This document shows positions 7,282-62,005 of a stretch of 64,000 nt of DNA, piece after piece. This DNA is from Ascidiella aspersa (taxonomy: Eukaryota). Each line of letters begins with the position of its first letter. Position 1 is the first letter of the stretch. The stretch is taken from assembly GCA_963924565.1 (NCBI GenBank), contig OZ004615.1:15748001-15812000 (forward strand), written 5' to 3'. The translations under genes and the position numbers were made by a program. The notes beneath the pieces were generated by a model. The model was not told the DNA's origin. It searched no databases and saw only the letters and a list, made by a program, of their open reading frames with translations.

Positions 7282-7694
7282 TAATATGCGAGTTGTGTTG
7301 AAGAACTTCAGCATGATTGTCGAGATTTCTGGCCAGACGTCTCACGTAGCAATAAATGCGAATGTAAGAACTTTTGCCATTATTATGTGTTCCTTTCTTT
7401 CTGCAAATGCTCGAGTTATGTGTAATAAGTGGTCTGTAAGATTACAAGCACGACACATATTCATATTTGAAAAATAATGATTCTTTAGTAAAAGGGCTAA
7501 AAATGCGAATTAAGATGGACCCTCAAAAACTTTTCGTTAATGAAAGATTCTACCACAATTGCATTGCAATACCATGAAGCATACATGGGTAAAACGAAAA
7601 AGTGTAATGCAGTCTCCCAAGTTTCGTTTAAGAATAATTTAATCCCAAAATTAAAAAAAACTTACCGACCAAATCAAATGTTTTGCAATATTTT

Positions 7695-13563: not shown

Positions 13564-13596
<33 letters not shown>

Positions 13597-21674: not shown

Positions 21675-22517
21675 CTAACCCAAAAGAGGAACATCGTCGG
21701 AACCGTCAACATGAAGGGATGAAGAATTCGACTGTTCTTCGGGCGGCGTTTCGATTAAATGTTTTGCTTGCCCGGCAAGTTTGTACAGACGATCCAACAG
21801 TTCTCTGTCGTTCATAGAAAGACAAACCTTACAAAGGAGCAGCGTTCGCGTCGCGCATAAAACTAACACGAACCCCATGGTAATGTTAATGTAGCTGATA
21901 ATTCCGAGTCGCTCGCTATTTTGCAAAACGCAGTCGAAAGTAACATCTTTGAATGCTGTACAAGTGAACACTCCTTCCGTTTCTTCTTCCTTGTGGTTAT
22001 TGACAAACGTTATCATCGTAGCACAGTAAGAAATGCTCGCTATTAAACAGATAATGCTCCTGATGCGATAGGTTCTAACAAATACATGCGATTTTTCCAT
22101 TTCGCCCAGAATCCCTTGCTTCTTTCTTTTGTTCGTGTTATTCGAATCCTTTACCCACTTGTAACTGCGCGCGGCGTTGACCACATGCGGAAAGAACTCC
22201 AAATAGCAGTTGTAAAGGTACATCAGTACGGCATATACCACATTAAGCCACCAAAAGTTTCGAAAATAGTTGAGAGACGGTTGCATGAAACAAACTTGGT
22301 TTACGTACTCCAAGTGGTAGTCCTTGAAACGGGAAATTGTTGAGTTTTCAAATTCTGACTCCACACAAACAAACGAGTCGTCGTCCGAGTGGGTAAAGAA
22401 GTACAGAGATGTGGCGATCAAAATCAGATTGCACGAAAACGAAACTTTTTCCCACCATGGCTTCAAATCGTTCTCTTTAAACAAATCCGATGAAGGCAGA
22501 ATGTGTTCCAAAGACAT
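21675..22517 (-). CDS. LRRC8/pannexin-like 4-TM large-pore channel domain protein lacking LRRs (intronless CDS, 280 aa)
   Basis: LKPWWE (cf. LRRC8 LKPWWD) before TM1. YVNQVCF...YFRNFWWLNVVYAVLMY...FFP matches LRRC8 YVDAVCY...FAKYFPYLVLLHTLIF...KFP. MEKSHVFVRTYRIRSII matches VEEGDIVYRLYMRQTII. Two Cys in each extracellular loop; four hydrophobic segments. Confidence 0.8.
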   Translation of the reverse strand: MSLEHILPSSDLFKENDLKPWWEKVSFSCNLILIATSLYFFTHSDDDSFVCVESEFENSTISRFKDYHLEYVNQVCFMQPSLNYFRNFWWLNVVYAVLMYLYNCYLEFFPHVVNAARSYKWVKDSNNTNKRKKQGILGEMEKSHVFVRTYRIRSIICLIASISYCATMITFVNNHKEEETEGVFTCTAFKDVTFDCVLQNSERLGIISYINITMGFVLVLCATRTLLLCKVCLSMNDRELLDRLYKLAGQAKHLIETPPEEQSNSSSLHVDGSDDVPLLG

Positions 22518-34200: not shown

Positions 34201-36872
34201 ATAGTACAACAAGAAACAAAAAACGAAATAAGAGGCAAAACCCATAGACTCTTTTATAACAGTTTCATTACATCCAGTATACACTTTTTTGTTGGAAGTC
34301 TGAATAATTGTTAAAAACACACAAAAAAAAACGTTCTTTCAACACTAATTGTGTACGTGTGATCAATTTAAATTATAGACGTGACCAATGCGACAAACGG
34401 ACTATAACAAAATGTAAACTTCCCCAACTGGTTTGTAACAACCTTTCTACGAACAAATTGCCCACATCCGCAAGTTAATTTCTCTAGGCCACTGCTGAGT
34501 CACATGTAAAGGTGACTCAAAGCTAGGTATGTGACAGCAGGAAGTGGAACAGTGTGAAAACGTTCGCAGTTCGTGACAACGTTATAATTGGTGCCTGTCA
34601 ACGCACTGCCAGTACAAAAGAACCAAGAAAATGACTTGACACCCGTACGCTTAGGTTACATATAGGCGAATAAAAACATCCCTACATATTTTTTAGGTTT
34701 TTTGTTTTATGTCTAGTATAACATTAACTTATCCCTTTGAAAAAGTTAAAAATTATATACAGCTTCAATGAAAAACGTCTGCTATGGGTTTTAAGATATA
34801 GTTAAATATGCCAAAAAGAACTAAAATGTATGGGTGAACATTTTGTTCGTAAATACTAAAAAACAGGCCGGCCGGCGGCCAGTAACACTGCAAACAATAT
34901 TTTTGTCAAGATTTACATTTGTCTCGTTTCTGCTTTATGATCTACGCGCGATAAAGTCGATGTTGGGCTTAAGTTTGCCATCAAAGCGCCTTCAGCTCAA
35001 TCAAATTGACGCACCCTAGTATGACAGCAACAAGCAAGGCTGCTAAGCTGGTTAAAATGCCCCGAGTCCGACACCGAGTCTCTAGTCCGACTCCAATTCT
35101 TCAGCCTGTATTTCACCCATTTACTTAAATAAAATAAATTGAAAAATCAGCAACCCACTCATATGGGTGTCATAGAATTCATCCACCCACTTTACATGAT
35201 TAAAAAAGATTCTATATATACTATTCCACCTTTACAATTTACTGTTGGCGGCCATATCAGATTCAAAATTTGCTACTGCACATGCGCACGTCGGATTCTG
35301 CACTCAGAGAGTTTTACGTGGTCTTCTTACCCGAGTCCCGATTAATTAACCAACTCTGCGGAGTCCGGATTCCGACTTCGGCTCCACAGCCCTGATGAAC
35401 ATAACCTGTGATTACTTGCGCACGAATTGTGGCTTCGTTATACATTTGGCACAATTTATTTGCCATTGTAGTTGTAAAGTTTTAAAAACATTTGCGTCGC
35501 GCAGTTACGAGCCAACAATCGAGGAGATCCACAAGAAGACGGTGTCGGTTGACGGGGAGCAGTTTCTGCTTGAGCTGGTCGACACCGCCGGCATGGACCA
35601 GTTCACGCAAATGCGTGAGATGTACATCCGCAACGGCGACGGATTCATTCTGGTCTACTCCATCCTGGACCCGACCACCTTCGAGGACGTCAAGTCGATC
35701 CGCGAGCAAATCGTCAGGAGCAAATACACGTGAGACAAACAGGGCTGCGCGTTGTGTCTGACTCCCGATGACAGGCGTGTAAGGCCACTATAAGGCCTGC
35801 TAGCACGCCGGCAATTGTGGGACACTGATACCGAGTGACAATGCAAAACGTTTAGCATTCCATATATTATATATAGATATATATACTTGGGCACACTATA
35901 CACGGATCTGTAATGTAGCTTGATAATAAATTGCAAAGCCAAAAAGGTCAAGTAGATCGACATCATCTTGATTATGTTGTCTTGTCATCATCTTTGATTA
36001 TGAACACATTAACTGAAGATGATATAAGCTCGTATTGATATTGATCTACTCGACCTTTTTGGCTTTGCAATTTATTATTAACCTATATATATATAAATTT
36101 GCTAATTAAATAGTCAGTTTGATATTCGACATGCACAAGCTGTTCTGTGTCACCCTGAACGGCGTCTATTAAACCAAATCGCTAAAAGAGCTTCGGCTAT
36201 TGGTAACATCTATTTTAATACTGTATTGTATTGCCTGTGTAAAATCGCGCTAAGTTCAACTTTTTTACTTGAATTCTTGTTTATAAACAACAAAAAAGTT
36301 ATATCATTACTGTACTTTTTTTGCGTCGATGGAAAAAATGTGAGATAGTTTTCTTTTAAGCATTCTGTCGAACTTACTCAGGGCAATAAAAAATATTTTG
36401 TTGGTGTAAAAAACATTTCCAGCCTTAGTTGGTTGACTTTGCCTTAGGACAATACCTCTTGCATCTGAGGTGGCCTATGCATGTTACACTTGAGTGTGTA
36501 AAATTGTTAAACCTTGAAATAATATTAAAATACCTAATCAATAATCAATTAAATTGTACGACGAAAAGGTAAAGCGTGTAAGTGTGTAATTGCAGCGAAC
36601 AAGTTCCAATCGTTCTTGTGGGAAACAAGCGAGATCTCGCCGAAGCGGAACGACAAGTAGACGAAGACCTGGCATCACAGTGCGCCGCCAAGTGGCCACA
36701 TTGTCGCTTTATAGAAACATCTGCCCGGGACCATTGTGAAGTCGAGGACGTTTTTCTCCACGTTTTAAAGGAGATAAGAAGCTTCGAAAACACTCGGAAA
36801 AATAGGGTGACTGCCCTCCACAAAGAGGCCTCCACGAGGCGAAAATCGAATGGAAGATGTAGCGTCATGTAA
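31215..36872 (+). CDS. Ras-family small GTPase, Rap-like (3 coding exons)
   Basis: Exons 31215-31306, 35505-35729, 36596-36872 with phase-2 introns. [17 protein letters not shown] (G1), YEPTIEE (G2), DTAG (G3), NKRD (G4), ETSAR (G5), CAAX CSVM. MR.YK start and [16 protein letters not shown] are Rap-like. Confidence 0.9.
31386..31719. mobile_element. hAT MITE (CAGGGGTTCTTAAAC family), degraded
   Basis: Termini caggggttcttaaac...gtttaagaaccctg; similar along its length to 32871-33184. Confidence 0.75.
32871..33184. mobile_element. hAT MITE (CAGGGGTTCTTAAAC family)
   Basis: Perfect 16-bp TIRs CAGGGGTTCTTAAACT/AGTTTAAGAACCCCTG; TSD ttctagta/ttctatta. Confidence 0.9.
35060..35393. mobile_element. 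hAT MITE, GAGTCC-rich family (partial)
   Basis: Similar to 16041-16421 and 45607-45988; right end ...ctccacagccctg. Confidence 0.75.
35886..36078. repeat. Second copy of the hammerhead-family fold-back repeat (ribozyme core broken)
   Basis: 35886-35972 is the reverse complement of ~15055-15139. 36005-36078 is a forward copy with CTGAAGATGAT but no GAAA. Confidence 0.75.
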
Positions 36873-41997: not shown

Positions 41998-44900
41998 ATG
42001 AGTGGCAAGATGCTTCATTCACAAAGTTGCCTGGTTTTTGCCCTGATGCTGTCATCTCTTGCTGGATGTACTTTTTGTGAGTAAAACGATTAAACTTTGA
42101 AGCACAATAACATTGTCTACTAAGTGAAAAAAAATTAGAGATAACAATGTAAATAACCATCTTTAAAGATGAAACTAAATCTTTCTGTAGAGTATAAATT
42201 GGTATACAAAATATATATTTTTGCAGTAGCTTCAGCTGAGCACCTTAGAAAGAGCAAAAGTCTGTCATGGAGCAAGTGGACGCGCTGTAGTGTGACATGC
42301 GGCGAGGGTAAGCAGTCACGTGTTAGAATGACGTCACCAAGAGTGGAAACAAGACCTTGTTACAAGAAGTTTTGTCCAAGTAATTATATTTTTAATTTTT
42401 CAACTTACGTAAATGCTCAAGGTAAAATTGTTTGTTATTATTTACAGTTCACTTACAGGATAACGGGGCCTTAATAAGAAAATAATTTAAAATTTAGGAG
42501 CAGAGTTGTAAGACTTACGACAAATATTTTTCTGTAAGTACCCTGCCAAGGTACTCCCGGTGTAATATTATGAGGGTGCCATTATCGCTGGTCAGTAAAA
42601 ATCACAAAATATAACCATTTGTACAATCAAGTGATTCTTAAGATTGCGGCGCCCTAAAAATATCATGGCACAATTTCTACCACTATATGCCAATTTGAGC
42701 CCAACATAAGTGAACAATCGTACTTATAGTTCTATTATACTCTGCAAAGAATGTGTAAATAACATAATAATATCAGTTATGTAATCGATAGGCGTATTCA
42801 AATATGCCATGTATGTCGACTTGGATATTTGTAATACTTAAAGGATATTTTACTAACTTAAAAATGCGCGGCAAAAAGCTATCGTGAGTAACTTGGTGTG
42901 CCGCAACATACAATTTCCGAACCACTGTTATGCACAAAGGTTGAACCAAAACGTACACTGATTTATTTATCTGTGTGTTTTTACCTGTCATCATGTGTGT
43001 GTTTTTTTCTCGTGTTTTCTCGCGTCGTTAACAAACGCTGCCAACTATCCCAGGTTACCTTTCGTGGCCGCGACTCCACTTCAGTGGCAAGTTTGTGGCG
43101 GATGTAAGCACCCTGAACAACATAGCGTGCAACTACGACAACAGGCATTTTACCAGCACCGCAATATCACGTTACAACCAGCGGCAACTTTCAAAAGTTA
43201 GATTTTGATTTTAAACTAGTACTTTACGAACTTCACTATACTCACGTACCATTTATTGAGTTGTCATATCATCAGCGTTTCTAACATTTCAGAACCTGTT
43301 AATAAACATTAAAGGGAAAAACTGTTTAACGAATACAATTTAATGAGATTTAAATACAACTTTTATTAAGTTTTTTACTAAATAAATAAAAGACGTAAAA
43401 TGCATAAGGTTTCCTTTCTTCGACCAGTTGGTGGAAGTGAGAAATAACTTTTCTCACTGCACATCAAGGTGATATACATGAACATCATTACGGAAACCGA
43501 CTCTTACAATATAGAGAGTATATGAAACACATCATCGCACCTTCAAATGTGGAAAGAAAATTGCACAAAAACTCTAACATGTTGGAATTAGAAAAATGAA
43601 ACTTTCACAAGCTGCATAATTAAAACCAGAACCACGCGAATTTCACCTCTTACGAAAACCAGCAAGACAACTGGAATGCGATGGGCAGCGGTCACTTCTA
43701 CTTCGTTGGAACTCGCATCACTTCAATTTGCACAAGCCCCAACAGTTGCAGCACAAAGGCACCTATAACCAAAAGTGTTCTGCGAGGTAAAAACAACTTT
43801 TTGAAAATTGCGACTGAGTCGTGGGCTGCAAAAGCATTATGTAGTTGCGCTCTCATGTTAAGCCTGACGGAAACTATGTTACGCAATTAAGTAACCCTAA
43901 TCTTATTGGTCACATGTTATTGAACTTTGAATCGATTATGTATAAACTGCCATGATAAGTTTGAGAAGTGTCTTTACATGGTCTATGTTTTGTTGAAGGA
44001 TTATGAGATGGATTGATACATAGTCTACTATTTTTATTTCTTTGCTCATTGGAAAAGTTTACCGCTTTACGATCTTATTTTTGCAGAGGCTGAAAGGGCC
44101 CAGATGGTTACCCCTCACCCATATGAGCAGATCGCTTGCGAGGTTTGGGGACTAACCATACAGATCCCGGGGGTGTTGGAAGGACGGTATAAACCGGCCT
44201 GCAATCAGGTGGAAGGAAGTAGGTGCAAGCGGGTGGTTGATAAATTCACCAAAGGATACTCGTTTTGCAACCTGGCGCGTTTTAAAAGGTAAGAATGATT
44301 ATTACATTAAGCATGCGTAGAGCATTACCCTAAACACCCTGGGCGGTATAAAGCGCGGTTTTTGATACTTTTATCTTGCGCTGCCCTTTTTATATATATT
44401 ATCTGTCAAATTATTAAAAAAATGTTGCGTGGACGGTTAAAACGTTCTTACAGACCCGCTGGGGTGCGCATAAACCACTTCTTAAGCAATGGAGTTACAC
44501 ACTAGCGTAACAGGTTGTTTCAGCAATAACAAGATCAAGTAAAATTCACAGTGTCATATGGTTCAAATAACATTTGAAAAAACAGTTAACAAACCTTTAA
44601 AAATAAAATGAAATTAGTAAACGCAATCACTAACACTATGATTAACAGAATCGTTACTATTGTTTTAAGTTCTCCAAAACATTTGTCTGCATGTTTATTT
44701 TTTTCATTTTTGTGTTGTTTTGGAACACATCCAGCCTAATAAAATTATTGTGTAGATTCACTTCCACCGTCAGTGCTACTAAATCAGTTGAAAAATTCCC
44801 TTTCAATGCTAGAATTTTTTTTTTAATATGGCTGTACGTAAATATAGAACTTATTCCAATAAACACATATGTTTAAGATGAATTTTTTGGCAACAATTGC

Positions 44901-47900
44901 GCAACATACTTTGTGTTTTTTTGCAATAATATTACGACATGCATTACTTTTTCCAGCGTTCTACGCAACATCACTTGGTACAGTGAATTTCACAAGCGGC
45001 TATTTCATAATGCCACGAGTCTTAGCATTACGATGGTGATCGACCATTTTAATCAGATAGCCCGCTCTGGCAATGTGTCAGGAACCATAGGTAAGAAAAA
45101 AAGATGAATGTTTGCCTTACACCTAAGACATATATATAACTATTTGAGTTTCTCGTGGAATAAGTAGAACTATTATAGATGCTAGGTAATCTCTAGTACT
45201 AAAATTTGTTGAATAATTTTTTGCTTCTATGGGATAGAGCAGTAAATCCCAAACTGCGTGCCGCGGCACAATAGTGTGCCTCGAGAGATTGTAAAGTGTG
45301 CCGCGAACCTTTTTTAAAATTGGAAAATGTAGTTTTTGTAGGCATACACGCAAGCATTTTTGACTTAAATACGCACTATTTATTACAAACTATTCATATT
45401 GAGACATTTACATGTAGTTTGTCGTGTGTTAAGAGCGGCTGAAAAGTTTCTATATTGTTTTTCTGTTAAAAGTGTGCCGCGAAATATTAAAGATTTTTTT
45501 CGTGTGAGGCGAGCCCAAAAAACGTGGAAACCACTGGGATAGAGGCTTAGCGTGCAATACATTAACACTATTATTTCAGAAGAAAAAAGTTACAGGTGTT
45601 TAACCCAGGGCTGCGGAGTCGGTTAAAAATAACTCGAGTCCGACTCCCGAGTCCGACTTCGGCCGAAAAAATAAACACGAGTCCCGAGTCCGACTCCGGT
45701 CAAATGTGCGATTTTGTCAAGTCCTGAGTCAGGCCCGGACTCAGGACAGTAACTAAAATAACATTGATTTTCAGCAATCCACCTATATAGGGGTGTCGTA
45801 TAATTTATTCACTCACAAAACATGGTTGGAAAATATTTCACCATTTGCTATAACACTTTTACAATTTCCATTTGACGGCCATATGAGTTTTAAAATTCGG
45901 TACTGCGCATGCGCATGTCGGACTCGGGACTCGGGTAGCTTTACAAGGTCTTACTCGATCGACTCCCGAGTCCGACTCTGACTCCGCAGAAAATGCTTTT
46001 GGCCCTCAATCTCAATACTCCTTACCGAATGTAGAACCAAGTATTATCTAATTTAAGAAGTAAATTGACAAGTCATGTATCGATCCATAAATGGGTTAAA
46101 CAACTTGAATGGAAATAAGTGCAGCGCGGGACTAGATTACATTTATTTAAAAAAAATGTTTTTTTGTACAGGTCTGACTTCTGGCGACGACTCACTTGAA
46201 GCGATGGCATCACGGCTTATGATGCCGTTTGGAGATGCTGTGCAGACACCGTTTTACCTTTACAAACATAAGAAAATTGTTTGCATTGACATGGGAGGGG
46301 CGTTGCTCGCGTACGACAATGGCAAACCTAAGTCGAAGGGGGTTTTTCTAGCTGTTAAGGTCCAATGCCGGTAAAGTTACTTCATAATAGTGTAATAGAA
46401 AGGCTTTTATATTTTATTTCAAATTATATTTTCTTATTTTATACTTACAAATATTTTCTTTTCAGTGGCGGTTATTCTAATGTTTCTCTAGTTCTACTTT
46501 TATAAATCTTAGATTTTGATAAAATGAGTTGTCCAATAAATATATTTTCTTATTAAGATAACGACCAACCCAAATTTGGACTGATACACTTTCATATTCT
46601 TTACCGCTGAAATATGAAAGGCGTACGAAACCATCAGATCTTTGTTGATCAAAATATACGTTTGCTAGATTTCCATATTTATACGCCACCTATGTGTGCT
46701 ACAACTCAGTGGTGTCTGCAGCTGGAGATACCTACTACATTCTACAAAAGCTCACTACGAGTTACCTGGACGCCAAGGGAGACTGGTACTGGCTAAAAGG
46801 CGGAATTCTGGACGTTAGCCTTTCGCATTTGCCTTCCAGCGTTTTTCGCTTGCTTGAAAATCACAGGCTGACGATATTGCAAAAAGCTAAGCGTCGCAGT
46901 CACAGGTGAAATACGCAATCGATAGCAAAACATCTAGAGATATGTAAAAACTTATAAATTATAGTCATACAACCAATGCAAGGTTTTACACTAAGGGTGG
47001 TCAGTCAATCCAAGACCTTTTCCAAAAAAAACACATATCTTTGCTTAGCTAGATCTATTGTAAATGTTACACATCAACAACAATGTATATATCTAGGAAT
47101 TATGAACGTGTTTTTTCTTTAAAAATCGATGCATTTACGTTGGTAAAGCTTCTGGCATCTAATGAAATAATTGACCAGAAACACTTTTGAGTCAGAATCG
47201 GCATAGCATAAATAAAAATGCAAAATACTCTGTATCAATGATCAATCAAAATGGGTTACATATGGTCGATATATCGGTACATCGTCGGGCATCCTTAACA
47301 AGAATCGCTACCAGAGTAACGTTTTATTTTAGTTTCTTCAGGATACTTGTCGAAGAACCGAAGTATGGCATGAACGTTGGCGTCTTCAGTTCGGTTATTC
47401 AACGATTAAACGTCAATCAAAGCGTCGTATACAAAACATTCGCTTCAAAGTACGGCAAACCATTAAAAAATGTCCATCTTTCCATGGGATTACTACCGGG
47501 AAAAGAAATTTGTGATTGTGGATTCGAAGGTTGCACGTAGTAAGTTAAGGTTTTTCGTCGAACTTACAAACAAGCTAGATATTATAGGAGTGATAGCACG
47601 ACAACAATGGACAAGTAAGCACGTTTTGCAATCCTGCCTATCTGTATTTATTTATTTATCGTGTACCAACCGAACACCATTGAGGGTTTTACCAAAATGT
47701 CACAAACTAGAACCCCAAAATAATACTTCTTTTAACAAAAAATATGTACTATTTTATATTGTGTTTTGAGACATCAGTAATGGTACAGTGCGCAAAGTCG
47801 AAAAAGGGCCGAAAAACACAACGTTAGGAATTAATTCTGTGCATGTGGGAAAATGCCATTTAGTGACTATTAGGCAGTAACTTAAAGCACAACAATGAAA

Positions 47901-50900
47901 TAATTTGATAAACTTTCTGCAAATCAGCAAGGTTTTGTGTATTGGTATTGTTAAAGCTATGTCTGCCTATTAACTTGGCGTTGCTAAACATACGGTAAGA
48001 AGCAAATTATTTTAAACCGTGACCGTTTAAAAGTAAAAAAAAGATTACTTTTAAGAGTATTACTCCACCTTTCTCTCAGAAATAGAGCCATTTTTTTCTT
48101 TCACGGAGAAAATAAATTATCCCGACGCCTTTCGCTTGAGATAAGGAGCGCCTTTTTACACTGCTCAAATTGTTGTAGACATACCGACTGACCAACAAAT
48201 ATCGACAAATCTAGATATTAGGATTTTTGTCATGAGATATTTTAAAACTGTTTCGACATTTTGATAAAACCAACCAACAAAAAACAGTGTATTATTTTTG
48301 GTTTGTTATAATAATTGTTGTAGTTTTCTCCCTAATTATTTTTATTGCAAAATATTGTTTGTTTAGTTAGGCTGCTTAATTACGGCGAACTCTACACAGT
48401 AAAAAAACACATCCCTTCAGAATTAACCTTGTGTCAATTATTCATTCAGTCGGACAGCAGTGCCCGCGGAATCAATTCGCATCAGTAGTGATAATTCGTG
48501 GACCGGAGCATCTGGCATAAACTCCCACACGGTGTCTCTCGTGAGCGATCCTGGCAGTAACGGTTGCGGCATCGACGGTCAGGTCTACTCGTTGTACACC
48601 AAACTGAAGTGAGAGCGATTTTATCTAGTATTGAAAGGTGTAGTGATGACGCGCAAGATAGTGCGGCATAATTATACTCGTGATTTCGCATATCTTGGAT
48701 TTCGTTAAAAAATGTAAAAGTTAGACAACAATAAATTGGATTTTACAATTTGTTACTATAATTTCAAGTTTATAAATGCTCTATCACAGTAAAACGATTT
48801 TATGTTCTGCTCCCGATTCACCTGTACTGTCCTATAATAATTTACTACTCATCAAAAAACAAAAGTAATAAAAATATGGTGTTTGATAGGTGGTCTACAG
48901 CTAAAAAGATTTTTTTTAAAGTTTGCCAAAATGATTACTTGAACTTCAAAAATTTGCTATGGAAACTTTTTAACAACATAGTTTTGCGTCCTATCGGGGG
49001 GCGTCATGACCTGTTGTTGTTCTATGTGTGGGTGTTGTATTATTCGTGCACTCAATTTTGCGTCGGTGTTACCAATATTAATTTCGAATTAATATAGTTA
49101 TGGTGATACCCAGTATAAAGCGACTCGCCAAGTTATTTTTCTATATTTGTTATAAGATCCACCTTTTAATTGGGGGTATTTTTGCAGGTATGATATATTA
49201 GGCGAAACCGTGAACTTTTGCAATCCCGATGGTGCCACCGATTGCAAAATCGGTCTGGATAATCAATTGACGCAGGTTCGAGCATTTAGCGAAGTCGAGG
49301 TGCCAGATTGCCCGGGATGGCTTGACATATCAGGTGAAGTTAATAGTTTTCGTTAGCTTAACTGTTATTGATCCAAAGAAATATATTATTATCCTCAAAA
49401 AGAATATCCTGTAGCTATTGGCTTCATTTTACATTAAGGCAATTTAAAGAGTGAGGTTAATCCAATCAACAACGATAAGTGTTTTATTGCCTATTCATAA
49501 AAATCTAATAATTCTTCCTAAAAAAATTGCAAATATATACCGTTAACATAAATAAACAACGTTTTTACAATTATGTTTTTAATATATGTTGTTGCATGTT
49601 TGTGAAATGAATTGAATAAATAATGTTTTATTTTTTATTTTAAATCCCTATAATGGCTTTAGGTATATTTGAGCAATACTACAACCTGTATCCTGTAATG
49701 TGGCGAAACGGAATTATTGACTTACATGCGTACGGGGAGGTAAAACAGAAAGCGCGACTCATAAAGACTGCCATGTTTGATCTAGATTTTTCTCATCCAC
49801 GGTAAGCGATTACTTGCTATAAAACAGTGGTTCTTAACCTTGGGTAAATTACCCACATGTGGGTAATTTCAGGATAGCAGGTGGGTAATCAGCTCAACCA
49901 GAATATTTAGAATTATGGTTGTAACAAACAATGTCACAGCTGTAAGTGCCTAAAGGCCCGTTTACACTACAGCTGCACTGAGCGGAGCTGAGCTGCACTG
50001 GGCGTGGAATTGTTTTCACTACAGCTGCAGTGAGCTGCGCTGGGCGTAAAAATCGCGACAAAACGTAATGTTTTTCTATAGCTGCACTGGGCTTGAGTTT
50101 AGCAAAGCGTGGAAATCGCTCCAAATCGTATTTTTTTTTTCAGCTGCACAGGGCTTGAGTTTAGCAAAGCGTGAAACGCTTTAGCAAAGCGTGAAACGCT
50201 TGCCACAATAGAATTTAAATGCAAATTACGCCCAGCGCAGCTCAGTGCAGCTGTAGTGTAAACGGGCCTTAAGTGGTAAGTTGCTTTATTACTTGCACTT
50301 TTTTTTGATGTTTTGAGTCCTTTTGAAACAAGCACAAGGATATTTTATCATTTTTACAATTGTTTTGTCATAGTGATAATTAATTTTTGGGGCCGGTTTA
50401 CGTAGTTTATATTTATGTGACGTAATAGTAAGATTTTCTTGTATCGCTAAGCAGGCTAGCCTAGTTATTTTTTCATTATCAGTTTTCTGTTAGTGTTTAT
50501 TTTTGAAGGTATTCTTAGTAGTTATTTGGAGTAGTTCACAGTGGCTATAAGTGTGCATTTAGAGCTAGTGTTGAGATGAGCGAGCTATAATTTGTTAAAT
50601 AACACTGTTTTATATTTTTAGTATGGTAAAATAGCAAAATGAATAAAATTACATTTTGGGTAATGGGACCTTGATCTGGACCAAAATGGGTAATAAGGGA
50701 AAAATGGTTAAGAACCCCTGCTACAAAATAAACGCATGATTTTTATTAATCCAAAAACAGTTCCTATGGTAATTATTTTTTCTCGAAGTTGTTCGCGTTT
50801 TTCTTTCTTTTTCCTTTGTAATTTGCCAGATATTGTATTACTAGCGTTCGACGTCATTCACAATGAAAAAGGCGATTTGAATATGTGGCTGAAACGTAAA

Positions 50901-53900
50901 GAAATATAATTACCAAGGGAGCTGTTTTTGAACAATATAAAGTCTGGTAGCAACAGTATTATTTCAAACTCCAATCGATAGAAATTGTGTATAATGTATA
51001 GTAATTCAACTTTTGGTAGTTATTCTAAAGTATTTGTGAAACGAAATTCTGACAGCCATGTGAACAAATACTGTGGTGAAGTCGCAAATGTATTTATTTT
51101 TTTATTTCTTACAACGACTACTGTCCTGTTAGATACATGCCAGCCACGAGGGACTTGTCCCTTAGTAAGCAGAAGCTCATTTGGAATTGGATGCAATGCG
51201 GAATGCAGTTTGACACACGAAATAAAACACGCGGTTTGTACATCAAAAATAGTTCTAGCAACATAAATATACCTAATGATATTTAATTCCACGTTCGAAG
51301 TTTAAATTTATAGTTCATTTTAATACCAATACTTATTAATTATCCTAATATCCTATACAATTTTCTGCCTAAATAAAGTGGGTTTAAATCAAAACAAAAA
51401 ATTTAGTACTGGTTTAATTTTAGTGTTTATATGATATGACAGTGTTTCCCAAGTTATGAGTCTCTGCTTATTCTTTTGGTTCTCTTGTCAAAATACAAAA
51501 AAAACCTTAAAGTTTATTATAGACAAAGTTAAAAACAAATGATGAATATTAAGAAAGTGGTGAACGTCACGCTTGACATAGAGTTGTTACCTTATATTTG
51601 CAATTTGTCAACAAACATATTCCAATAAGTTGGATTCAACACGTGTAAGTTGCGGGGTGATTTTATATACACAATACACCAACAAAGACTGTAGGTGGTA
51701 CGACTCGTACCCTACAAAAATGCTTTGTTTTAAGTTTTTCAAACAGAAATAACCTATTTTATAGGATATTAACCTATTCTTCCTATAAACAGAATATTAG
51801 TTTACCCAGTTGTTATACATATAGTTAAAATTACCGAACTGAATGTGACTTGGTTACCTACTTTACACAACGTATATCAGTTTACCACATATAAGGTATT
51901 TTACGTCTAATAAACTGAAGTCACTTTTTCCCGCTTTAGCTTTTCGTAAAGCCTAGGACTAGAACTATCTGGAGTCTCGTAAATAATGAGTATCATCTTT
52001 GTATCAGCGTGAAAAATGATGTGGACAGGTTGTGTGCAGTAATATTTTCTTTTGTAGTATATGTTTTTCGTTTTGTATTTCGTCTATAATAGTGATTCGT
52101 CTGCAGCTCAGTTTTACCGCTTTTTTATTAAATATCTTGCTACATAACCCTTTCTCAATTAACACCTCTTAAACTACCAAGTTTAACAGGATAAATGCAT
52201 AATATGACTTTTGAGCTTGGCGAAAAATTATACGTTTTATTTGTAAAAGCATGCAGCTTTGGGAGCTAGCAGCTAGTTTGCTAAAACACCTCGATGTTTT
52301 GACGTAGGCCACGTCTCCTTTAATTAAAAAGTTTGCCAAGTTAAACTACGTTAATTTCGGACGTCATCTTGAAACAACTTTAAATCCCAAAAAACAAATT
52401 CCTGAATTTCCTCTTTATTAGATGAGGCCTGGGTTGCCAGATTTGCATTGTTTGAAACTTTCGAAATTTTTCGGAACAAAGAAAAATATTGGCAACCACT
52501 GGGGGAGTGGTATTTTACTCAACCCAACCTTTACCCTGCTAAAGTGCTTTCATAGATGCATAGCATTCTCATAACCGAATATAATGCAAACATGTGATTC
52601 AGAAATAGTATAACACATAACAGATTGCTCCAAATTTTGCTTCATTAAATTTTGTTTAAAATGTCGAAATCGGATTGAAAGCCATATTTAAAAAAATTGA
52701 TATAAACTGTAATAGTATTTCGTAAGCAGTAAAACGACCATTAATCGTTTTGTTTCAAACCCGTCAGGAGAATGCAGCACCGATACCGTCAAGGAAGGCA
52801 TAGTTGAATTGAAGGCCCTTATCCAAAAAATCGTCATGCTTGAACTTGCAACCATCCCCCCTTACTTCACGGCGTGGCTGAGTCTCAAGACGGAAGCCGC
52901 AAGAAACTATGAAATTGCGCGACGACTCAAGTCAATCTTTAGTGAAGAAATGCTACATATGTCCCTGGCGGCCAATATGCTGAATGCGGTGTGCATACGG
53001 GCTTAAAGTTATACATTTTTTCGTACCTATAACATTCCAATTTTGGAATGCATTCACAAGAGTTTTACTTTAAACGTTTATCATTTCGGATGACGTTTCT
53101 AATTTAATTTAAAATCATATAAAGATCGAGGCTCAAAACAGATACTTTTAAAAAAGGTTTATCCACAATCCGATGATATTTGGAGCTAACCATAAAAACA
53201 TTCAAGCTAACAACTAAATGTAATTTACATAATTTAGTTCTATGGTACTTCTCAAAATAATAAAACTAATGCCCAATATGATTTATTGAAAACACACATT
53301 GCGTTTTACAATACGTCAGCACTTTGTAGTATTGCTTTTAGGTTCGTAAGCGTAATTTGATTGCATTTAACTCGAACCTTTACCAAAGTGACAGCCGAAA
53401 TTAAATCCGGTTGTAACGTTCGTATAGATTGGAGGAACCGTAAACCTTACAAACATCAACGAACTGCCTTCCTATCCAACTCCGATTGGAAGTGGTTCTT
53501 TTTACGACATTTCAGCCAACATTCTACTTCCGTTGGAGCGCTTCTCCATTCCACTTGTCCGGGATGTATTTTCGAACGTCGAGATGCCAGCGTCAAAGGA
53601 AGATAGAAAGGTTTGGAGTAATTACATAATTATTTGTAGGGATTAGGCAATCATTGGTTGTGAAGAGTTGTACAGATGTTAGCTGCATTTCGTTGCCATT
53701 CTACAGAGTATCGGGTCGTAATGTTTTAAACCTCCCTAAGCAATAATGCTGTAATGGTCTGTCAATGCGTTTAAAGTTAAAGGTTTATTTATTGACTCAG
53801 ACCGATCAGGCTTATTTTCCAATGCAGGAACTGCTGCGAGCAGCGCAACTCTGGAAGATTCTCTTTCAGTTTACGGACGAGAAACCTACGAATAAAATGG

Positions 53901-54832
53901 CCCTGCTCTTGGAGGAACTTGCCGAAAGTGATGAAATAGACGAAGACCCGCTTCAACTAGAAGCAAAACCCTATGATTCGTTGGAAGAACTCGAAACAAG
54001 GAGCTGGTTGGCGATATACGAATACGCAAGAAAGCGATTGGATGCGCATAGAAGCTCGTTGGCCGGCACTATCGGGGGCTTGTATGGCAAATTGTTGATG
54101 CATATCATACTACTTGAATCTTGTGCAAAGCTGTACGGTTTCGACGACGGAAGGTCGAATACCAACACTATCTTCGTCGGCAACTTCTCCAAACAACTGA
54201 ATATAACCTCTTGGTACGACCCTTCCCAGAAATTCGCCCTGAACGAAACCATTGCATCGATGCAGGTATCGGATTGCAGTATGTGTGATAATTGTATTAT
54301 GTCGTCAAAAGCAAATTGCATACGCTTGTTTAAAATGAAGTTTTGCCTCACTGAAATAATTTGTCAACCCAGCTGGTCACTGTTAGTTGGCATTTAATAG
54401 CGCCTAAATTTAGATTAACAGCAAAGTAAAGGAAACATTATAATTAGATGGTACTCCACAACACCAGTATTATAGTAAATGATCAAACTGCCATGACTGT
54501 CAAATCTGTTGTAGACTGTTTTATCATTTAAACGGTGCTAATTTGAACCATACCTCGCATAGAAGTTTGTTCTATAAAATTATAAGTAATATTACAATCG
54601 ACAAAATAGACTCATATCCTACTCCATCATCCTTCGTCATTCGTTATATGCTACTTTTTCAAGGAACAAATGAGACAGGAAGAGCTTGAGATAACACAAT
54701 CGCAATCCAGTTTCGTGATCAAGAATCCTATTCCTCCAGCTTACTCGAAAGATTCCAACCTGTCGATGCCCTTGTTCCCGATCTTCGATTTACGTACGGC
54801 AATTCAAGCGGTCGTTGAAATTGTCTATCAAG
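41998..54832 (+). CDS. Secreted TSP1 + VioB/RebD/StaD-like (ferritin-like C-domain) fusion protein; at least 17 exons, >1008 aa, 3' incomplete
   Basis: Exons 41998-42076, 42227-42379, 43054-43196, 43663-43786, 44087-44288, 44957-45090, 46172-46370, 46669-46905, 47342-47539, 48450-48608, 49188-49333, 49663-49801, 51133-51233, 52768-52988, 53428-53610, 53828-54265, 54664-54832. All GT-AG, phases compatible, 3025 nt with no stop. Motifs in order: signal peptide; WSKWTRCSVTCGEG; SYLSWPRLHFSGKFVADVSTLNN; WNAMGSGHF; EVWGL; SGTIG; DPG...IDGQVY; QYYNLYPVM; YMPATRDLS; LELATIPPY; EEMLHMSLAANMLNAIGG; TIGGLY; AVVEIVYQG. Confidence 0.88.
42227..42379 (+). other. Thrombospondin type-1 repeat exon (phase 1-1)
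   Basis: WSKWTRCSVTCGEGKQSRVR...ETRPCYKKFCP: WxxW, CSVTCG and RxR motifs; a 4-Cys short variant. Confidence 0.9.
45607..45988. mobile_element. hAT MITE, GAGTCC-rich family
   Basis: CAGGGCTGCGGAGTCGG...CTGACTCCGCAG; collinear with 16041-16421. Confidence 0.85.
49825..50720. mobile_element. hAT MITE carrying a nested Harbinger MITE
   Basis: TIRs CAGTGGTTCTTAACC/GGTTAAGAACCCCTG; TSD ctataaaa/ctacaaaa. Confidence 0.85.
49954..50269. mobile_element. PIF/Harbinger-type MITE
   Basis: Long perfect TIRs AGGCCCGTTTACACTACAGCTGCACTGAGC; 3-bp TAA TSD on both sides. Confidence 0.88.
52768..54832 (+). other. Ferritin-like (PF12902/VioB C-terminal type) domain exons
   Basis: ELKALIQKIVMLELATIPPYFTAWLSL...EEMLHMSLAANMLNAIGG...PSYP...LERFSIPLVRDVFSNVEMP...TIGGLY...IFVG...LFPIFDLRTAIQAVVEIVYQG follows the family consensus as I recall it. 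Confidence 0.88.
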
Positions 54833-55151
54833 GTATGCAGTTAAAACAAACAGTTGAGTGATTCACAGCGTCGCAATCTATATTCGCCTCAGCGGTTACG
54901 CGCGCTCAACCACAGCCAGGCACTAAAGAAATTATGAACCATATATTGTATTGTCGGCCGATTTAGGATGTTGTTTACAATGTATTAGGGAAAAAAGTCT
55001 TGGTGCAAGTAAATTTTTTAAACGTTATATACAGAGTAAAATACAAACAACTGAATAAACGTAAAGCGTAACCTCAGTATGCAACACATTTTGATGGACG
55101 TTTCAGGCCTTATAAAGCGACGAACATAAAGCACTCTACCGCTATTGTTTT

Positions 55152-55351
55152 NNNNNNNNNNNNNNNNNNNNNNNNNNNNNNNNNNNNNNNNNNNNNNNNN
55201 NNNNNNNNNNNNNNNNNNNNNNNNNNNNNNNNNNNNNNNNNNNNNNNNNNNNNNNNNNNNNNNNNNNNNNNNNNNNNNNNNNNNNNNNNNNNNNNNNNNN
55301 NNNNNNNNNNNNNNNNNNNNNNNNNNNNNNNNNNNNNNNNNNNNNNNNNNN
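55152..55351. other. Assembly gap (200 N)
   Basis: Run of 200 N; the true size is unknown. Confidence 1.
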
Positions 55352-57980
55352 CATCTCCACAGGACTCAAAATTGCATTTCTACGCAAATGTGTAAAAATG
55401 CAAGTTCTACTGCCATCCAACCATAAAAAGGGTATGGACTTTGATCTACTTTTATTACAACAGTCGAGGCGCATTCATGAGCAAATTGTCAAGATCCCTA
55501 CTGCTCGCATAGACCAAAAGACGTGGCAATTACTGTCAAACGAAACTAAACATCAGCTTTTACAACATAAATGCCAAGTTCGCCACAAGCTTGACAACAA
55601 GTTCCGTTGGCTATGGGAAAAGCAAAGACGCCAAAGGAACCTTATTGGCGCTGCAGTCAATGGAAGAAAAAATCGAAACAGACGAAGCAGACAAAGGTAT
55701 CGTGCACGCAAAGCTGGAATTAAGGCGAGGGAAGAGAGACAAAATGCTAATATGATGATTATTAACAAATCAGGTCAAATGCTTGATATTAACGCTAAAT
55801 TATTGTTAGCAAAAGGGTTAAACTTTGCACCCACTCCGAACTGGAGTAATGCAATAAGGGACAAAGAATGGATTAACTTCCAATCGCACATTCGACGTAT
55901 TGAATGGGCCAACGTATTCAAAGATAAGGAAGATTCTACCAATATTTTTATACCACCTTACAAATTGAAAATTCCCAAGTTTTCCAGACCCCACAGAGAC
56001 CAATTAGATTTGGAAACAGTTATTTACGTGGAACTGGCTGAAGCTAAACTGCGAAACGTAGCTGCGACCGTGCGTAAAGAATACAAAGGCAGAAACAACC
56101 TATCCTTCCCCCTCCGAAATAGCCTAGAGTACCTCAAGCGCCTTACCTCCAGTCGGACGCTAGCATTCTGTCGGGCTGACAAAGATGGCAAAACCATTGT
56201 GGTTGACTATGAAGATTATAACTTCATTGTGGAAAATGCACTTCATGATTTCCAAAGTTTAAACCTCAACCAAAGAACTTTTCAAGCCAGATGTACAGCG
56301 CTACGAAAGACGTGCGAAGATGCAGTGAAGATGTTGCATGCACAAGACGCCATTTCGGACGATCTACTTCTCTGTTCCGTTGGGGTTAAAATCACCTTTT
56401 CTTCAGCTTCAGAACGTGGTGACGAAGCATGGAGATAATTTTTACCAGCAGAAAGATGGTATAGTTACAGGCGATAACCACTCAGTATCGCTGGCTAACA
56501 TTACAATGCATTATATAATAAAACCATGGATTGAAACCTTAAAGGAAGCACAAGTCTTTAAAAGATTCATCGATGACATTGTCTGGATTGTTGCAGGCGG
56601 AGCAGCAAACAGACACATTCAAACATCTTTGGAAAAGGCACTTGCAGCACATGGACTCCGTCTCCTATTTCGTTCCTTCTGTACAACCGACGTACGTGGA
56701 CAGGTCGACTTTCTTGACGTACTCCATGTCCCATGTGCAGAATCACCCTTCGGCTTCAAACTAAAGGATTTCAAAAAAGAAACTGCAAAACATCGGCAGT
56801 TCTTACACGGAACTTCCCACCACCCCATTTCCGTTTTTAAATCAATCATAACTGGAGAGGCGACACGCCTTAGACGACTAAACGAGATGGAGGAAGACTA
56901 CTCACTGAGCCTTCAAAATCTCGGCAAGAAATGTCTGCGGTCGCAGTTTCCTCCAAGGATGGTTAAACTCACGTTAAAAACTGCAGCACAGTTTGAAGCT
57001 AAAGTGCGCCAAAGGCAGACAAAGAAAAACAGAAAGGACCTTGTAGTTTGGCCCACAGCCTTTCCAAAGCTGCTTAAAACTACCTTAGACGAAAGAAGGC
57101 TGCAGCCACAAGCGATGCTTGTCTACAAAAGACCTCCGACACTTGGAAGCGTACTTACCAACTACCGCGCAATTAGTCAACCGGCAAGTACCATCCCTTC
57201 CACTGGAAAGTCAATCCCGTGCGGCCACTGCTGTTTATGCGGTCATTATAAACAGGCAGAGAGCATGGTCTCGAAGGTTTTCACAGTTCCCACGCGCAAT
57301 GGGAACATAGCACTGAAACAAGCACTTTGCTGCACCGACCACAGTATTTACATGGCGTCCTGTCGGCAATGTGGCGAACGATACGTCGGGCAAACAAAAA
57401 ATTCATTTGCAACAAGGTGGAGAGGCCATAGAGCAGTATGGAAAACTTTCAAGTACAAAGAAAATAACGACAAAGCAGCACTTCTGCGCCACTATGCTGA
57501 CAAACACATGTCCATGCTGAGGCAGAGTGTTTCAGCATAACATTTTTAGAAAAACCACCTTTTAATAAGTTGGACATATGTGAAGCAAAGTGGCTAAAGG
57601 TAGTCAACGCAACCATTAACATCCAAAAAATGGTTCTACCGCGAATAAGATAAACCGCTATCTTATCGCTACCCATTCGAGCCGCATTTTACCGTCTAGC
57701 ATCTCGCACTGCTCATATGTATTTTTCCCCCCTTCCTCTACTTATTTGTGTCGCCTACTCATTTATCCCAGTCGTGTTGCCTGCGAGGCTGTAGTGCTTT
57801 TCATTGCGTTTTTAGTCTATTATAATGTTTTAATATTTTATTGTTTCTTTTATTGGTTTGTTGATGGCTGCGCTCTGATTTTATTTATTTGTACTCTTAC
57901 AGGAACTGATGATGCCACTTTGGCGAAATATATTTTCCTTTAAACAAAACGTCTGATCCTGTTTTTACTCATGTTTTTAA
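55352..57980 (+). mobile_element. Penelope-like retroelement (RT + GIY-YIG endonuclease), internally deleted and frameshifted, with 3' pLTR
   Basis: Frame open from the gap (FLRKCVKMQVLLP), LAKGLNFAPTP, RADKDGKTIVVD; then FYQQKDGIVTGDNHSVSLANI, KRFIDDI, DFLDV, SHHP...KSIITGEATRLRR, CGHCCLC, SIYMASCRQCGERYVGQT (GIY-YIG). Frame breaks near 56390 and 57530; final stop at 57653. The 3' boundary is approximate. Confidence 0.92.
57901..57939 (+). ncRNA. Minimal type I hammerhead ribozyme in the Penelope pLTR
   Basis: AGGAA-CTGATGA-t-GCCA(ctt)TGGC-GAAA-tata-TT-TTCCT: stem I AGGAA/TTCCT, stem II GCCA/TGGC, palindromic ATATAT stem III, AUU cleavage triplet. Confidence 0.85.
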
Positions 57981-58663
57981 CTATGAGTTTTACTTGCTTA
58001 TAAATTTGTTGTTGGTATCACACCCCCTTAACAGCAAAACGTGCCGTCATGTATTGTCGGTGAATCACGAATTCAAAACTCCATTAACTAAAAAAAAAAT
58101 TACATCTGAGTAGAAAGTATATGTGTTTCAGAGGCCAATCATTCATCATAACACAGCCGGATTATATTACCTTTAGGTATGCGTGGATATCAAATAACCG
58201 TAATGTGAATTGTTTTTTCTACGCGGGCAGCTTAAAACCTTTAAAGCAGGCAGTCGTTCAAGGCAAAACTGCATACTAAACCGGTCCTTAACCAGCGTCA
58301 CGATTCAGTGGTTATTCCAAAACTTTGTGCTTATTTTTTTACAGTTTCGTAGAAAATACTAAAGTGCTTCTTTCTTAGAACGTGACGTTTTTAGTTTCGT
58401 GCTTAGTTGTCCTTATTTGATTAAAAATATTTTTGCTAAACATACTTCGTGACACTTAGTATAAAATATGTGTACCTTTAAAATTTCGGATTTTTTGAAC
58501 CCAAGAAGTTAAATGAACTGTTATGGCTTAAGCTGTTCCGTAGTTGAGAGGACATCAGCAACGAACTGTAATAGTGTTTCGAGATATTCTGCTTCCCTGT
58601 TTGTTATTTATCGTGATATTTATAACACCATGGTCGCGGCTTAACACTATTTAGAGACTAGAA

Positions 58664-61471: not shown

Positions 61472-61874
61472 ATGAAACTTGGATTACCTTTCATTGCGTT
61501 ACTTGGAATTCTTATGCTGATGCCGTTTCTTGTGGTAGTCTTTACAAAATTCTCTCCGTATAACAACTTACGTCAGATCAAATCACAAAAACATCAAACT
61601 ATTATGGCACGAAATAACATCAACAGAAACAACCAAAATAAAACTTCCCTTGGAAGTATTTCTGAAGTAAAGACTACGGAATTTTATCCAAATAAGGAAG
61701 AAAATAAACAACCGAGAGCAAACTCAGGCATTCAGTTAAATAAAACCGATGCTGTAAAAGATGACGTTGGTGGGAAAGAGCGTTCGGTTAAGGACGACAA
61801 GGACTTCATGAAAATTATGAAAGAAAGAATGACGAATAGGAGAAAAATGGTGAAAGCTGCTTGTCAACGCTTGG
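61472..61874 (+). CDS. First coding exon of a type II membrane (Golgi-type) protein, possibly carbohydrate sulfotransferase-like; further exons not identified in the window
   Basis: aaaATG start, N-terminal TM anchor, polar stem, then ERMTNRRKMVKAACQRL (R..R...+..C, as precedes the CHST8-14-type catalytic domain); G|GTGAG donor at 61875. Confidence 0.55.
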
Positions 61875-62005
61875 GTGAGCAAAACTAAGTAGATTATGGT
61901 TTACACAATGTAAACACTATTCTTTATTGTGCAATTTTAGATTTTCAAATTGGTAGTGTTCATAATAAATTAACTATTATTGCAATGTGAATTGTTTAAA
62001 CGTTT

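What the first reader, a model, noticed from the sequence alone, without database searches (positions are those of the whole stretch)
49663..54832. Hypothesis: host-encoded route to bis-indole or other oxidatively coupled metabolites
Seen: candidate functional motifs are intact (YMPATRDLS; E of LELATIPPY; ExxH in EEMLH). Established: StaD/RebD/VioB make the core of staurosporine, rebeccamycin and violacein, and staurosporine-type indolocarbazoles have been isolated from ascidians and are usually attributed to symbionts. Inference (speculative): the animal could perform similar chemistry itself with an endogenous L-amino-acid oxidase. No partner gene (VioA/StaO, VioE, StaP) is visible in this window, and the sequence may be closer to uncharacterised bacterial relatives with another substrate.
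Basis: inference. Interest (0 to 1): 0.7.

Follow-up and report, generated by a model that had tools for sequence, protein, structure and literature searches.

The report
Secreted animal cousin of violacein synthase
This sea-squirt gene encodes a distant relative of the bacterial enzymes that build violacein and staurosporine, but it belongs to a separate, unstudied branch found from sponges to sea squirts and is predicted to be a secreted metal-centre oxidase, so it likely does not make those drugs.

Summary
The motifs are real, but the finding covers only exons 12-17 of a 17-exon, GT-AG, stop-free gene (41998-54832, 1016 aa): signal-like peptide, TSP1 module, then a body homologous end to end to VioB/StaD with a PF12902 ferritin-like domain. 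It is a host gene: three complete paralogs lie on another chromosome, and relatives occur in Ciona, Styela, Clavelina, amphioxus, hemichordates, Lingula, a jellyfish and sponges. It is not a VioB/StaD: the quoted motifs are shared by the whole superfamily; it scores 21 bits against a VioB/StaD profile and 318 against an uncharacterised bacterial family, has 11 of 113 VioB/StaD-diagnostic residues, and sits across a long branch from them. No tryptophan-oxidase, VioE or LodA partner was found in the genome searches. The last ~190 residues, with two presumed metal ligands, are missing from this assembly, probably in an N-gap. Best reading: a secreted, matrix-tethered di-metal oxidase or peroxidase with a non-indolocarbazole substrate (0.5). 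Host bis-indole synthesis: about 0.07. No paper on the animal family was found in nine searches, though databases already auto-label members.

The parts
41998..42067 (+). Exon 1: ATG and hydrophobic signal-like peptide (res. 1-24)
   Evidence: hydropathy 2.44 over 11 residues; no dedicated signal-peptide predictor was run; orthologs start the same way
42227..42379 (+). Exon 2: thrombospondin type-1 module, phase 1-1 exon
   Evidence: PF00090 30.3 bits, cut-off 21.6; phases
43054..45090 (+). Exons 3-6 (43054-43196, 43630-43786, 44087-44288, 44957-45090): N-terminal beta-rich domain; begins where bacterial homologs and VioB begin
   Evidence: fold from homolog models
46172..49333 (+). Exons 7-11 (46172-46370, 46669-46905, 47342-47539, 48450-48608, 49188-49333): second beta domain and Ig-like domain
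   Evidence: exon 11 has no profile match over 8 bits and rests on splice sites and frame; Ig-like fold Z about 10 in a bacterial homolog model
49663..51233 (+). Exons 12-13 (49663-49801, 51133-51233): helical linker domain with YYNLYPVM and YMPATRDLS
52768..54832 (+). Exons 14-17 (52768-52988, 53428-53610, 53828-54265, 54664-54832): PF12902 ferritin-like domain with E705, Y712, E740, H743, E805, Y900; ends at a GT donor just before the xGEG motif
   Evidence: RNA reads of run X7 on the bins that hold these exons
54833..55151 (+). Presumed start of intron 17; single-copy in the genome
   Evidence: 54836-55151 has 1 match, itself
55152..55351 (.). 200-N assembly gap; likely place of the missing last exon(s), ~190 aa with two presumed metal ligands
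   Evidence: gap; no C-terminal match in 84 kb or genome-wide; location in the gap is inferred
55352..57950 (+). Penelope-like retroelement (RT and GIY-YIG), repeated in the genome; not part of the gene
   Evidence: PF00078 E 5e-6 and PF01541 E 1e-3, both under cut-off; 14 genome matches to its first 549 bases; 3' end approximate

Best explanation
The window holds a spliced ascidian gene for a TSP1-bearing, full-length distant homolog of VioB/StaD from a separate animal branch, predicted to be secreted and likely to act as an extracellular di-metal (iron or manganese) oxidase or peroxidase on a substrate other than the tryptophan imine. Shown: exon structure, open frame, domain order, paralogs, animal orthologs, position outside the VioB/StaD clade, conserved carboxylate and histidine residues. 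Inferred: secretion (hydrophobic N-terminus, 25 Cys, 11 N-glycosylation sequons); a di-metal site in the four-helix bundle (E705, E740, H743, plus the Glu and His of the unassembled exon); tethering to matrix or cell surfaces by TSP1 (amphioxus paralogs use FN2, kringle, F5/8, Kazal or LDLa modules instead); use of O2 or H2O2 to oxidise, and possibly couple, small aromatic or amino-acid-derived molecules outside the cell. The last exon most likely lies in the assembly gap.
For: 17 exons, all introns GT-AG, 1016 codons without a stop. 41% identity over 1027 columns to Ciona P0003 and 33-38% to other full-length ascidian homologs. Three paralogs on C3 cover animal-profile positions 2-1115 of 1120 and keep all motifs. 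Named relatives in Branchiostoma, Glandiceps, Saccoglossus, Lingula, Sanderia, Corticium, Ephydatia, Clavelina, Ciona, Styela (12 of 30 clusters looked up carry an animal name, 1 a bacterial name, 17 none). BLASTP best 245 bits to uncharacterised bacteria against 43.5 bits to VioB/StaD; profile scores 317.6 against 20.7. IQ-TREE, 48 rows: 14 animal rows one clade (SH-aLRT 99); mean path to uncharacterised bacteria 3.1, to VioB/StaD 5.1. Ligand-type residues kept in 51-53 of 53 animal-side rows, 45-47 of 47 other rows and 6 of 6 VioB/StaD. AlphaFold model of amphioxus P0010 (pLDDT 81.6): C-terminal domain matches 3HL1 at Z 25.8, rmsd 3.1, 264 aligned, then Dps, bacterioferritin and Mn-catalase folds at Z 8-11. 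Of 9 exonic variants among the listed rows, the 7 in the enzyme body are all synonymous. RNA run X7 has low depth (up to 1.1) on bins with exons 8-9 and 13-17, first mate on the minus strand only, as expected for a + strand RNA. LodA-like amino-acid oxidases lie in 3 of 79 bacterial loci, and PMC4417212 reports PF12902 genes beside fungal lodA/lodB: a link to peroxide or imine chemistry.
Against: No activity, metal or substrate is shown for any member of this branch. No fold was computed for the window's own protein; the models are of an amphioxus and a bacterial homolog. This copy lacks two presumed ligands in the assembly and departs from the superfamily at D139 (Thr) and W182 (Gly) of VioB numbering. 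No splice joint was listed for X7 and the bins with exons 1-5 had no reads (about 6% of the run read). Bacterial neighbourhoods give no single partner. The bacterial set was fetched with animal-derived patterns, which favours close relatives.
Confidence: 0.5

Rival explanations
1. An extracellular peroxide scavenger or iron-handling protein (catalase-like or ferroxidase-like) with no organic substrate.
For: Ferritin-like bundle with Dps, bacterioferritin and Mn-catalase matches (Z 8.7-10.8); the E-x6-Y and ExxH spacing resembles Mn catalase (recalled); genes beside peroxide-producing LodA oxidases in 3 of 79 loci and in fungi (PMC4417212); RebD is recalled to have catalase activity.
Against: A conserved ~600-residue N-terminal part, kept beside the ferritin domain even where bacteria split it into two adjacent genes, is more than a scavenger needs; one actinobacterial subclade sits in NRPS clusters next to P450 and aminotransferase-methyltransferase genes, which suggests tailoring chemistry.
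Confidence: 0.22
2. One reading: a host chromopyrrolic-acid or bis-indole synthase working with an endogenous L-amino-acid oxidase.
For: End-to-end homology to VioB; 33 of the 38 residues common to VioB/StaD and the uncharacterised bacteria within the assembled span are kept; H144 aligns with a His invariant in VioB/StaD; indolocarbazoles occur in some ascidians (PMC6950356).
Against: TIGR04492 score of the Styela ortholog 22.8 against a cut-off of 1250; 11 of 113 VioB/StaD-diagnostic residues against 32 of 47 residues diagnostic of the other branch; long separating branch; every VioB/StaD cluster fetched has a flavin tryptophan oxidase beside it, while the 79 loci of the closer family have none (2 weak hits, E 4e-6); the genome's PF01593 loci that were checked match LSD2, MAO and polyamine oxidase best; a StaO-like query gives only E 1e-3 FAD-motif hits; secretion would part it from a cytosolic pathway; the family also occurs in Ciona, Styela and amphioxus, for which I recall no indolocarbazoles; PMC6950356 ties the Eudistoma case to Salinispora and Verrucosispora.
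Confidence: 0.07
3. The family is as in the best explanation, but this copy is really truncated after exon 17 (for example by the Penelope-like insertion) and is inactive or only binds a ligand.
For: C-terminal exon(s) not found anywhere; a retroelement follows; the longest end branch among the ascidian rows (0.6); changes at D139 and W182; the three paralogs have no intron at this place.
Against: A 200-N gap lies 319 bases after a good GT donor; the DNA before the gap is unique and the DNA after it starts inside a repeat; 7 of 7 listed variants in the body are synonymous; RNA reads reach the bin of exon 17.
Confidence: 0.13
4. A non-catalytic extracellular recognition or structural protein (immune or matrix adhesion) that keeps a metal only for stability.
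For: Ig-like and beta-sandwich domains; shuffled extracellular modules and gene expansions in amphioxus and in the clade that holds the sponge rows.
Against: Near-invariance of the whole ligand-type set from sponges to ascidians is typical of catalytic sites.
Confidence: 0.08

Closest known systems
Uncharacterised ascidian orthologs (Ciona LOC100181841 and LOC100183538, Styela LOC120338304, Clavelina LOC143461065)
   Same: Signal-like peptide, TSP1, VioB-like body with PF12902; 33-41% identity; one clade
   Different: Only automatic labels (uncharacterized, or 'Iminophenyl-pyruvate dimer synthase domain-containing protein'); the window's copy lacks its last ~190 aa in this assembly
Uncharacterised bacterial ~900-aa 'ferritin-like domain' proteins (Chitinophaga, Chloroflexota, Acidobacteriota, Actinomycetota; sometimes two adjacent genes)
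   Same: Full-length homology, about 25-28% identity, best E 4e-69; 74 of 100 conserved columns shared
   Different: No hydrophobic N-terminus, about 5 Cys, no TSP1; varied neighbours, including NRPS clusters and, in 3 of 79 loci, LodA-like oxidases
Chromopyrrolic-acid / IPA-imine-dimer synthases VioB, StaD, RebD
   Same: Same domain order and ferritin-like ligand set; profile probability 99.9
   Different: About 21% identity; far below the VioB cut-off; separate clade; they are heme enzymes that work beside a flavin tryptophan oxidase and a P450 or VioE (PMC10851217, PMC10847564); several His and Cys invariant in them are absent
Caulobacter CC_0557 (PDB 3HL1), stand-alone PF12902 protein
   Same: Best structural match to the C-terminal domain of the amphioxus model, Z 25.8
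   Different: Single domain of 317 aa; named only 'ferritin like protein' in the entry

Membership tests
VioB/StaD/RebD synthases | Score above the TIGR04492 (VioB equivalog) cut-off of 1250 bits, or in the range of StaD-like proteins (about 470-520 bits for the C-terminal half) | tested here: not met
   Styela ortholog 22.8 bits; StaD-like range; the window's spliced model scores 20.7 bits on a profile of 13 VioB/StaD-like proteins. TIGR04492 itself was not run on the spliced model.
VioB/StaD/RebD synthases | Full-length homology with the same domain order | tested here: met
   HHalign of family alignment A2 against VioB: 798 columns, probability 99.9; direct BLASTP of the model finds only short stretches
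VioB/StaD/RebD synthases | Placement inside their clade and their diagnostic residues | tested here: not met
   Separate clade in three trees; 11 of 113 diagnostic columns
VioB/StaD/RebD synthases | Linked flavin tryptophan oxidase (VioA/StaO/RebO) in the same locus | tested here: not met
   None in the window and no PF01593 match near it (nearest on C9 is about 2.9 Mb away); present beside all VioB/StaD clusters fetched
VioB/StaD/RebD synthases | An L-amino-acid oxidase, VioE or StaP-type partner anywhere in the genome | tested here: inconclusive
   No LAAO among the PF01593 loci checked, no VioE (the control rang nowhere), no LodA; only best candidates are scored; P450s were not searched
VioB/StaD/RebD synthases | Heme binding and C-beta coupling of indole-3-pyruvate imine | not testable with these tools
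   Needs purified protein
PF12902 ferritin-like domain | Pfam score above the gathering cut-off | tested here: met
   54.5 bits for exon 14 alone, cut-off 22.3; 124.3 bits for the Ciona ortholog
PF12902 ferritin-like domain | Complete four-helix bundle with all conserved Glu and His residues | tested here: inconclusive
   E705, E740, H743, E805 present; the Glu of xGEG and the His of SH[YF] are unassembled in this copy and present in the three C3 paralogs
Manganese catalase / Dps / bacterioferritin | Fold and family-specific sequence match | tested here: inconclusive
   Shared bundle only (Z 8.7-10.8, well below 3HL1); no Mn-catalase Pfam hit listed or 125

The most novel reading that the evidence does not exclude
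Aquatic animals from sponges to sea squirts carry their own secreted, module-shuffled VioB-superfamily enzymes that oxidatively couple aromatic amino-acid derivatives outside the cell, and so make part of the dimeric indole, pyrrole or phenol chemistry (or matrix cross-links) usually credited to symbionts.
Probability: 0.2. Interest if true: 0.85.

Novelty: new variant of a known kind. Interest (0 to 1): 0.42.

Why it matters
It removes a tempting misreading: automatic labels call these animal proteins violacein-type synthases, and they are not members of that clade. What remains is an old, often multi-copy, apparently undescribed family of predicted secreted metalloenzymes in sponges, a jellyfish, a brachiopod, hemichordates, amphioxus and ascidians, whose closest other relatives are bacterial and which two recent gene-transfer screens (Ciona, amphioxus) do not list. 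Finding its substrate would give the first function for the larger, uncharacterised branch of the VioB superfamily and would test whether marine invertebrates do oxidative coupling chemistry with their own enzymes. Ciona and amphioxus orthologs make that test practical.

Tried and rejected
Bacterial contamination or a symbiont gene: rejected (16 GT-AG introns, chromosome-scale contig, paralogs, orthologs). A candidate exon at 51940-52028 and an acceptor at 46638: rejected because they break the frame. A chordate-only gene transfer, suggested: rejected after and the look-ups (sponge, cnidarian, brachiopod, hemichordate members); monophyly of all animal-side rows has weak support (0.56), so neither a single origin nor a donor is claimed and no one-clade test was run. 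Search for the missing C-terminus in the window plus 20 kb and genome-wide: nothing; a second read-laying across the gap gave no result, so the gap's content stays open. No RNA holder was listed in the run index. A solved VioB/StaD structure: none by sequence. Fold of the first ~220 residues: no clear match; only a weak hit to 2Q03 (Z 7.4, rmsd 3.5, 120 aligned), whose family I recall as an allene-oxide-cyclase/dirigent-like barrel, a lead only; searches with the N-terminal model were filled by its Ig-like domain; PDB profile search and Atlas gave nothing usable. A link of the actinobacterial subclade to dehydrotryptophan formation: no support found. Earlier findings of this scan: none returned. 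Nine paper searches listed no study of the animal family; subscription journals are mostly not covered.
Full report
OBSERVATION. The three motifs lie on the + strand in separate exons: YMPATRDLS at 51134-51160, LELATIPPY at 52839-52865 and EEMLH at 52944-52958. Walking splice sites upstream gives a 17-exon model from 41998 to 54832 with 16 GT-AG introns, compatible phases and 1016 codons without a stop; exon GC is 0.47 against 0.33 in introns. A first model with two wrong splice choices had 23 stops and was dropped. The finding's coordinates cover exons 12-17 only. Exon 1 encodes a hydrophobic signal-like peptide, exon 2 a TSP1 module (PF00090, 30.3 bits), exons 14-15 match PF12902 (54.5 and 20.7 bits).

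THE 3' END. Orthologs are 1200-1250 aa; the model stops at a GT donor just before the conserved xGEG. The remaining ~190 aa were not found by tblastn or by an animal profile in the window plus 20 kb, nor by two genome searches, which did find that region in three paralogs. A 200-N gap starts 319 bases after the donor; the DNA before it is single-copy and the DNA after it starts inside a Penelope-like element with 14 genome matches. The simplest reading, inferred and not shown, is that the last exon or exons are in the gap.

IT IS A LIVE HOST GENE. The window lies on a 26.6 Mb contig. Three paralogs on C3 (near 31.30, 31.63 and 32.92 Mb) cover profile positions 2-1115 of 1120 and keep all motifs. 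In RNA run X7 (same species label; about 6% read) bins holding exons 8-9 and 13-17 have depth 0.04-1.1 with the first mate on the minus strand only (one such bin, with exon 15's end, has none); bins with exons 1-5 have none, and no splice joint is listed (265 joint rows not shown). Of the 40 variant rows shown (292 more were not), I entered 37, leaving out 3 rows in an intronic repeat; 9 are exonic: the 7 in the enzyme body are synonymous, the 2 in TSP1 are conservative changes.

RELATIVES. Word-based searches gave 9 ascidian and 2 amphioxus proteins, then 29 amphioxus proteins among 67 hits. The full scan found 401 cluster representatives at E 1e-30 or better and listed 150. Of 30 clusters looked up, 12 carry animal names (Branchiostoma 3, Ephydatia 2, Glandiceps, Saccoglossus, Lingula, Sanderia, Corticium, Clavelina, Ciona), 1 a bacterial name and 17 none. 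No vertebrate or arthropod name appeared, which is not a test of absence. Most full-length ascidian and amphioxus members have a hydrophobic N-terminus and 17-37 Cys, against about 5 Cys and no such N-terminus in 56 bacterial relatives. Amphioxus paralogs carry FN2, kringle, F5/8, Kazal or LDLa modules in front of the same body. In bacteria, 250 stretches encode relatives, and 79 loci were kept; in some the N-terminal ~600 aa and the ferritin-like domain are two adjacent genes.

DISTANCE FROM VioB/StaD. Five VioB (over the TIGR04492 cut-off) and eight StaD-like proteins were fetched. Homology is real and full-length. But the model's best BLASTP score is 43.5 bits to them and 245 bits to the uncharacterised bacteria; profile scores are 20.7 and 317.6, and none of 141 new representatives scores higher on the VioB/StaD profile; the Styela ortholog scores 22.8 on TIGR04492 against a cut-off of 1250. 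In IQ-TREE (48 chosen rows, 872 columns, quick search) the 14 animal rows form one clade (99) and VioB/StaD lie across a branch of about 2.1 changes per column; FastTree on 79 and on 106 rows agrees, although support for one clade of all 53 animal-side rows is only 0.56. The model has 11 of 113 VioB/StaD-diagnostic residues and 32 of 47 residues diagnostic of the bacterial branch.

PARTNERS. All VioB/StaD clusters fetched have a flavin amino-acid oxidase beside the synthase; a profile of eight of them finds only two weak hits (E 4e-6) in the 79 loci of the closer family, 52 of which have at least 2.5 kb on both sides. Instead 3 of 79 hold a LodA-like quinoprotein oxidase, and an actinobacterial subclade sits by NRPS genes, a P450 and an aminotransferase-methyltransferase fusion. 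In the ascidian genome PF01593 gives 17 matches at six loci; three were compared with the PDB and match LSD2, MAO and polyamine oxidase best; one of the rest resembles the polyamine-oxidase locus, and two look like retinol saturase and LSD1 by recall only. A StaO-like query, VioE and LodA_C found no partner; these searches are lower bounds.

STRUCTURE. The amphioxus homolog P0010 folds at pLDDT 81.6, pTM 0.77: beta-rich N-terminal domains, an Ig-like domain, a helical linker, and a ferritin-like domain matching 3HL1 (Z 25.8), then Dps, bacterioferritin and Mn catalase (Z 8-11). A stand-alone bacterial N-terminal protein folds at pLDDT 89.6; only its Ig-like domain finds clear matches. No VioB/StaD structure was found by sequence. 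That E705, E740, H743 and the two unassembled residues bind two metals is inferred from the ferritin-like pattern (recalled) and from their near-invariance.

MECHANISM. Most likely (0.5) the protein is secreted, held on matrix or cell surfaces by TSP1, and uses a di-metal site with O2 or H2O2 to oxidise, and perhaps couple, an aromatic or amino-acid-derived substrate held by the N-terminal domains. Rivals: peroxide scavenger or ferroxidase (0.22), a truncated copy (0.13), a non-catalytic binder (0.08), a true bis-indole synthase (0.07).

LITERATURE. Passages of PMC10851217 and PMC10847564: the synthases are heme enzymes working with a flavin tryptophan oxidase and a P450 or VioE. Passages of PMC6950356: indolocarbazole-producing actinomycetes in Eudistoma. 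PMC13390645 (part 1 of 6 with Table 1, term search, and a search of its one held supplement) does not list this family; its screen excluded genes with amphioxus hits. PMC13350694 (abstract, sections 6-7, term search; supplements not read) names eleven genes; its three unannotated ones have other locus numbers than the members seen here and no invertebrate homologs. Passages of PMC4417212: PF12902 genes beside fungal lodA/lodB. Passages of PMC10880069 and PMC13336041 added nothing. RebD's catalase activity is recalled. Nine searches listed no study of the animal family, but UniProt already labels members automatically.

VERDICT. Real gene and real remote homology; the specific hypothesis is unlikely; what remains is an undescribed old animal family worth a substrate screen. 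Interest 0.42.

Noticed in passing
window 55352-57950 (+): Penelope-like retroelement (RT and GIY-YIG) in two long open frames (one ending at 56438, one at 56329-57540); a 99%-identical stretch on C6 suggests recent spread.
   Followed up: partly
window about 3300-7300 and 13200-18000 (+): Two near-identical tandem copies of a multi-exon membrane-protein gene; UNC93/MFS-like by recall, no Pfam hit for single exons.
   Followed up: no
window 35350-36870 (+): Ras-family GTPase gene in two GC-rich exons (PF00071).
   Followed up: partly
window 21678-22592 (-): 305-aa open stretch with no Pfam hit; looks like a membrane protein.
   Followed up: no
window about 61500-61880 (+) and 58120-58180 (+): Possible start of a type II membrane protein and a small exon, sulfotransferase-like by recall; no Pfam hit.
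   Followed up: no
window about 45290-46000 and 49830-50720: High-copy repeats with inverted ends inside introns 6 and 12 (depth about 100-fold in DNA reads), MITE-like.
   Followed up: no
L054, L065, L066, L069-L075, L078, L082-L085, L090, L094, L102: An actinobacterial subclade of the uncharacterised family lies by NRPS clusters, with a P450 upstream and often an aminotransferase-methyltransferase fusion, glutamate mutase or acylase: a candidate amino-acid tailoring enzyme.
   Followed up: partly
L038:269-11186, L110:4334-11769, L067:3594-10817: LodA-like quinoprotein amino-acid oxidase genes lie near family members; in L038 and L110 on the same strand with a flavoprotein-like gene following lodA, and L038 has two tandem members.
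   Followed up: partly
P0015, P0018, P0020, P0022, P0025: Amphioxus paralogs fuse the same body to FN2, kringle, F5/8, Kazal or LDLa modules; one is named LPA by its source.
   Followed up: partly
P0096, P0109, P0111, P0125, P0130, P0148, P0161: A well-supported clade of unnamed proteins nested among the bacterial rows of the tree, with somewhat more Cys; origin unknown.
   Followed up: no
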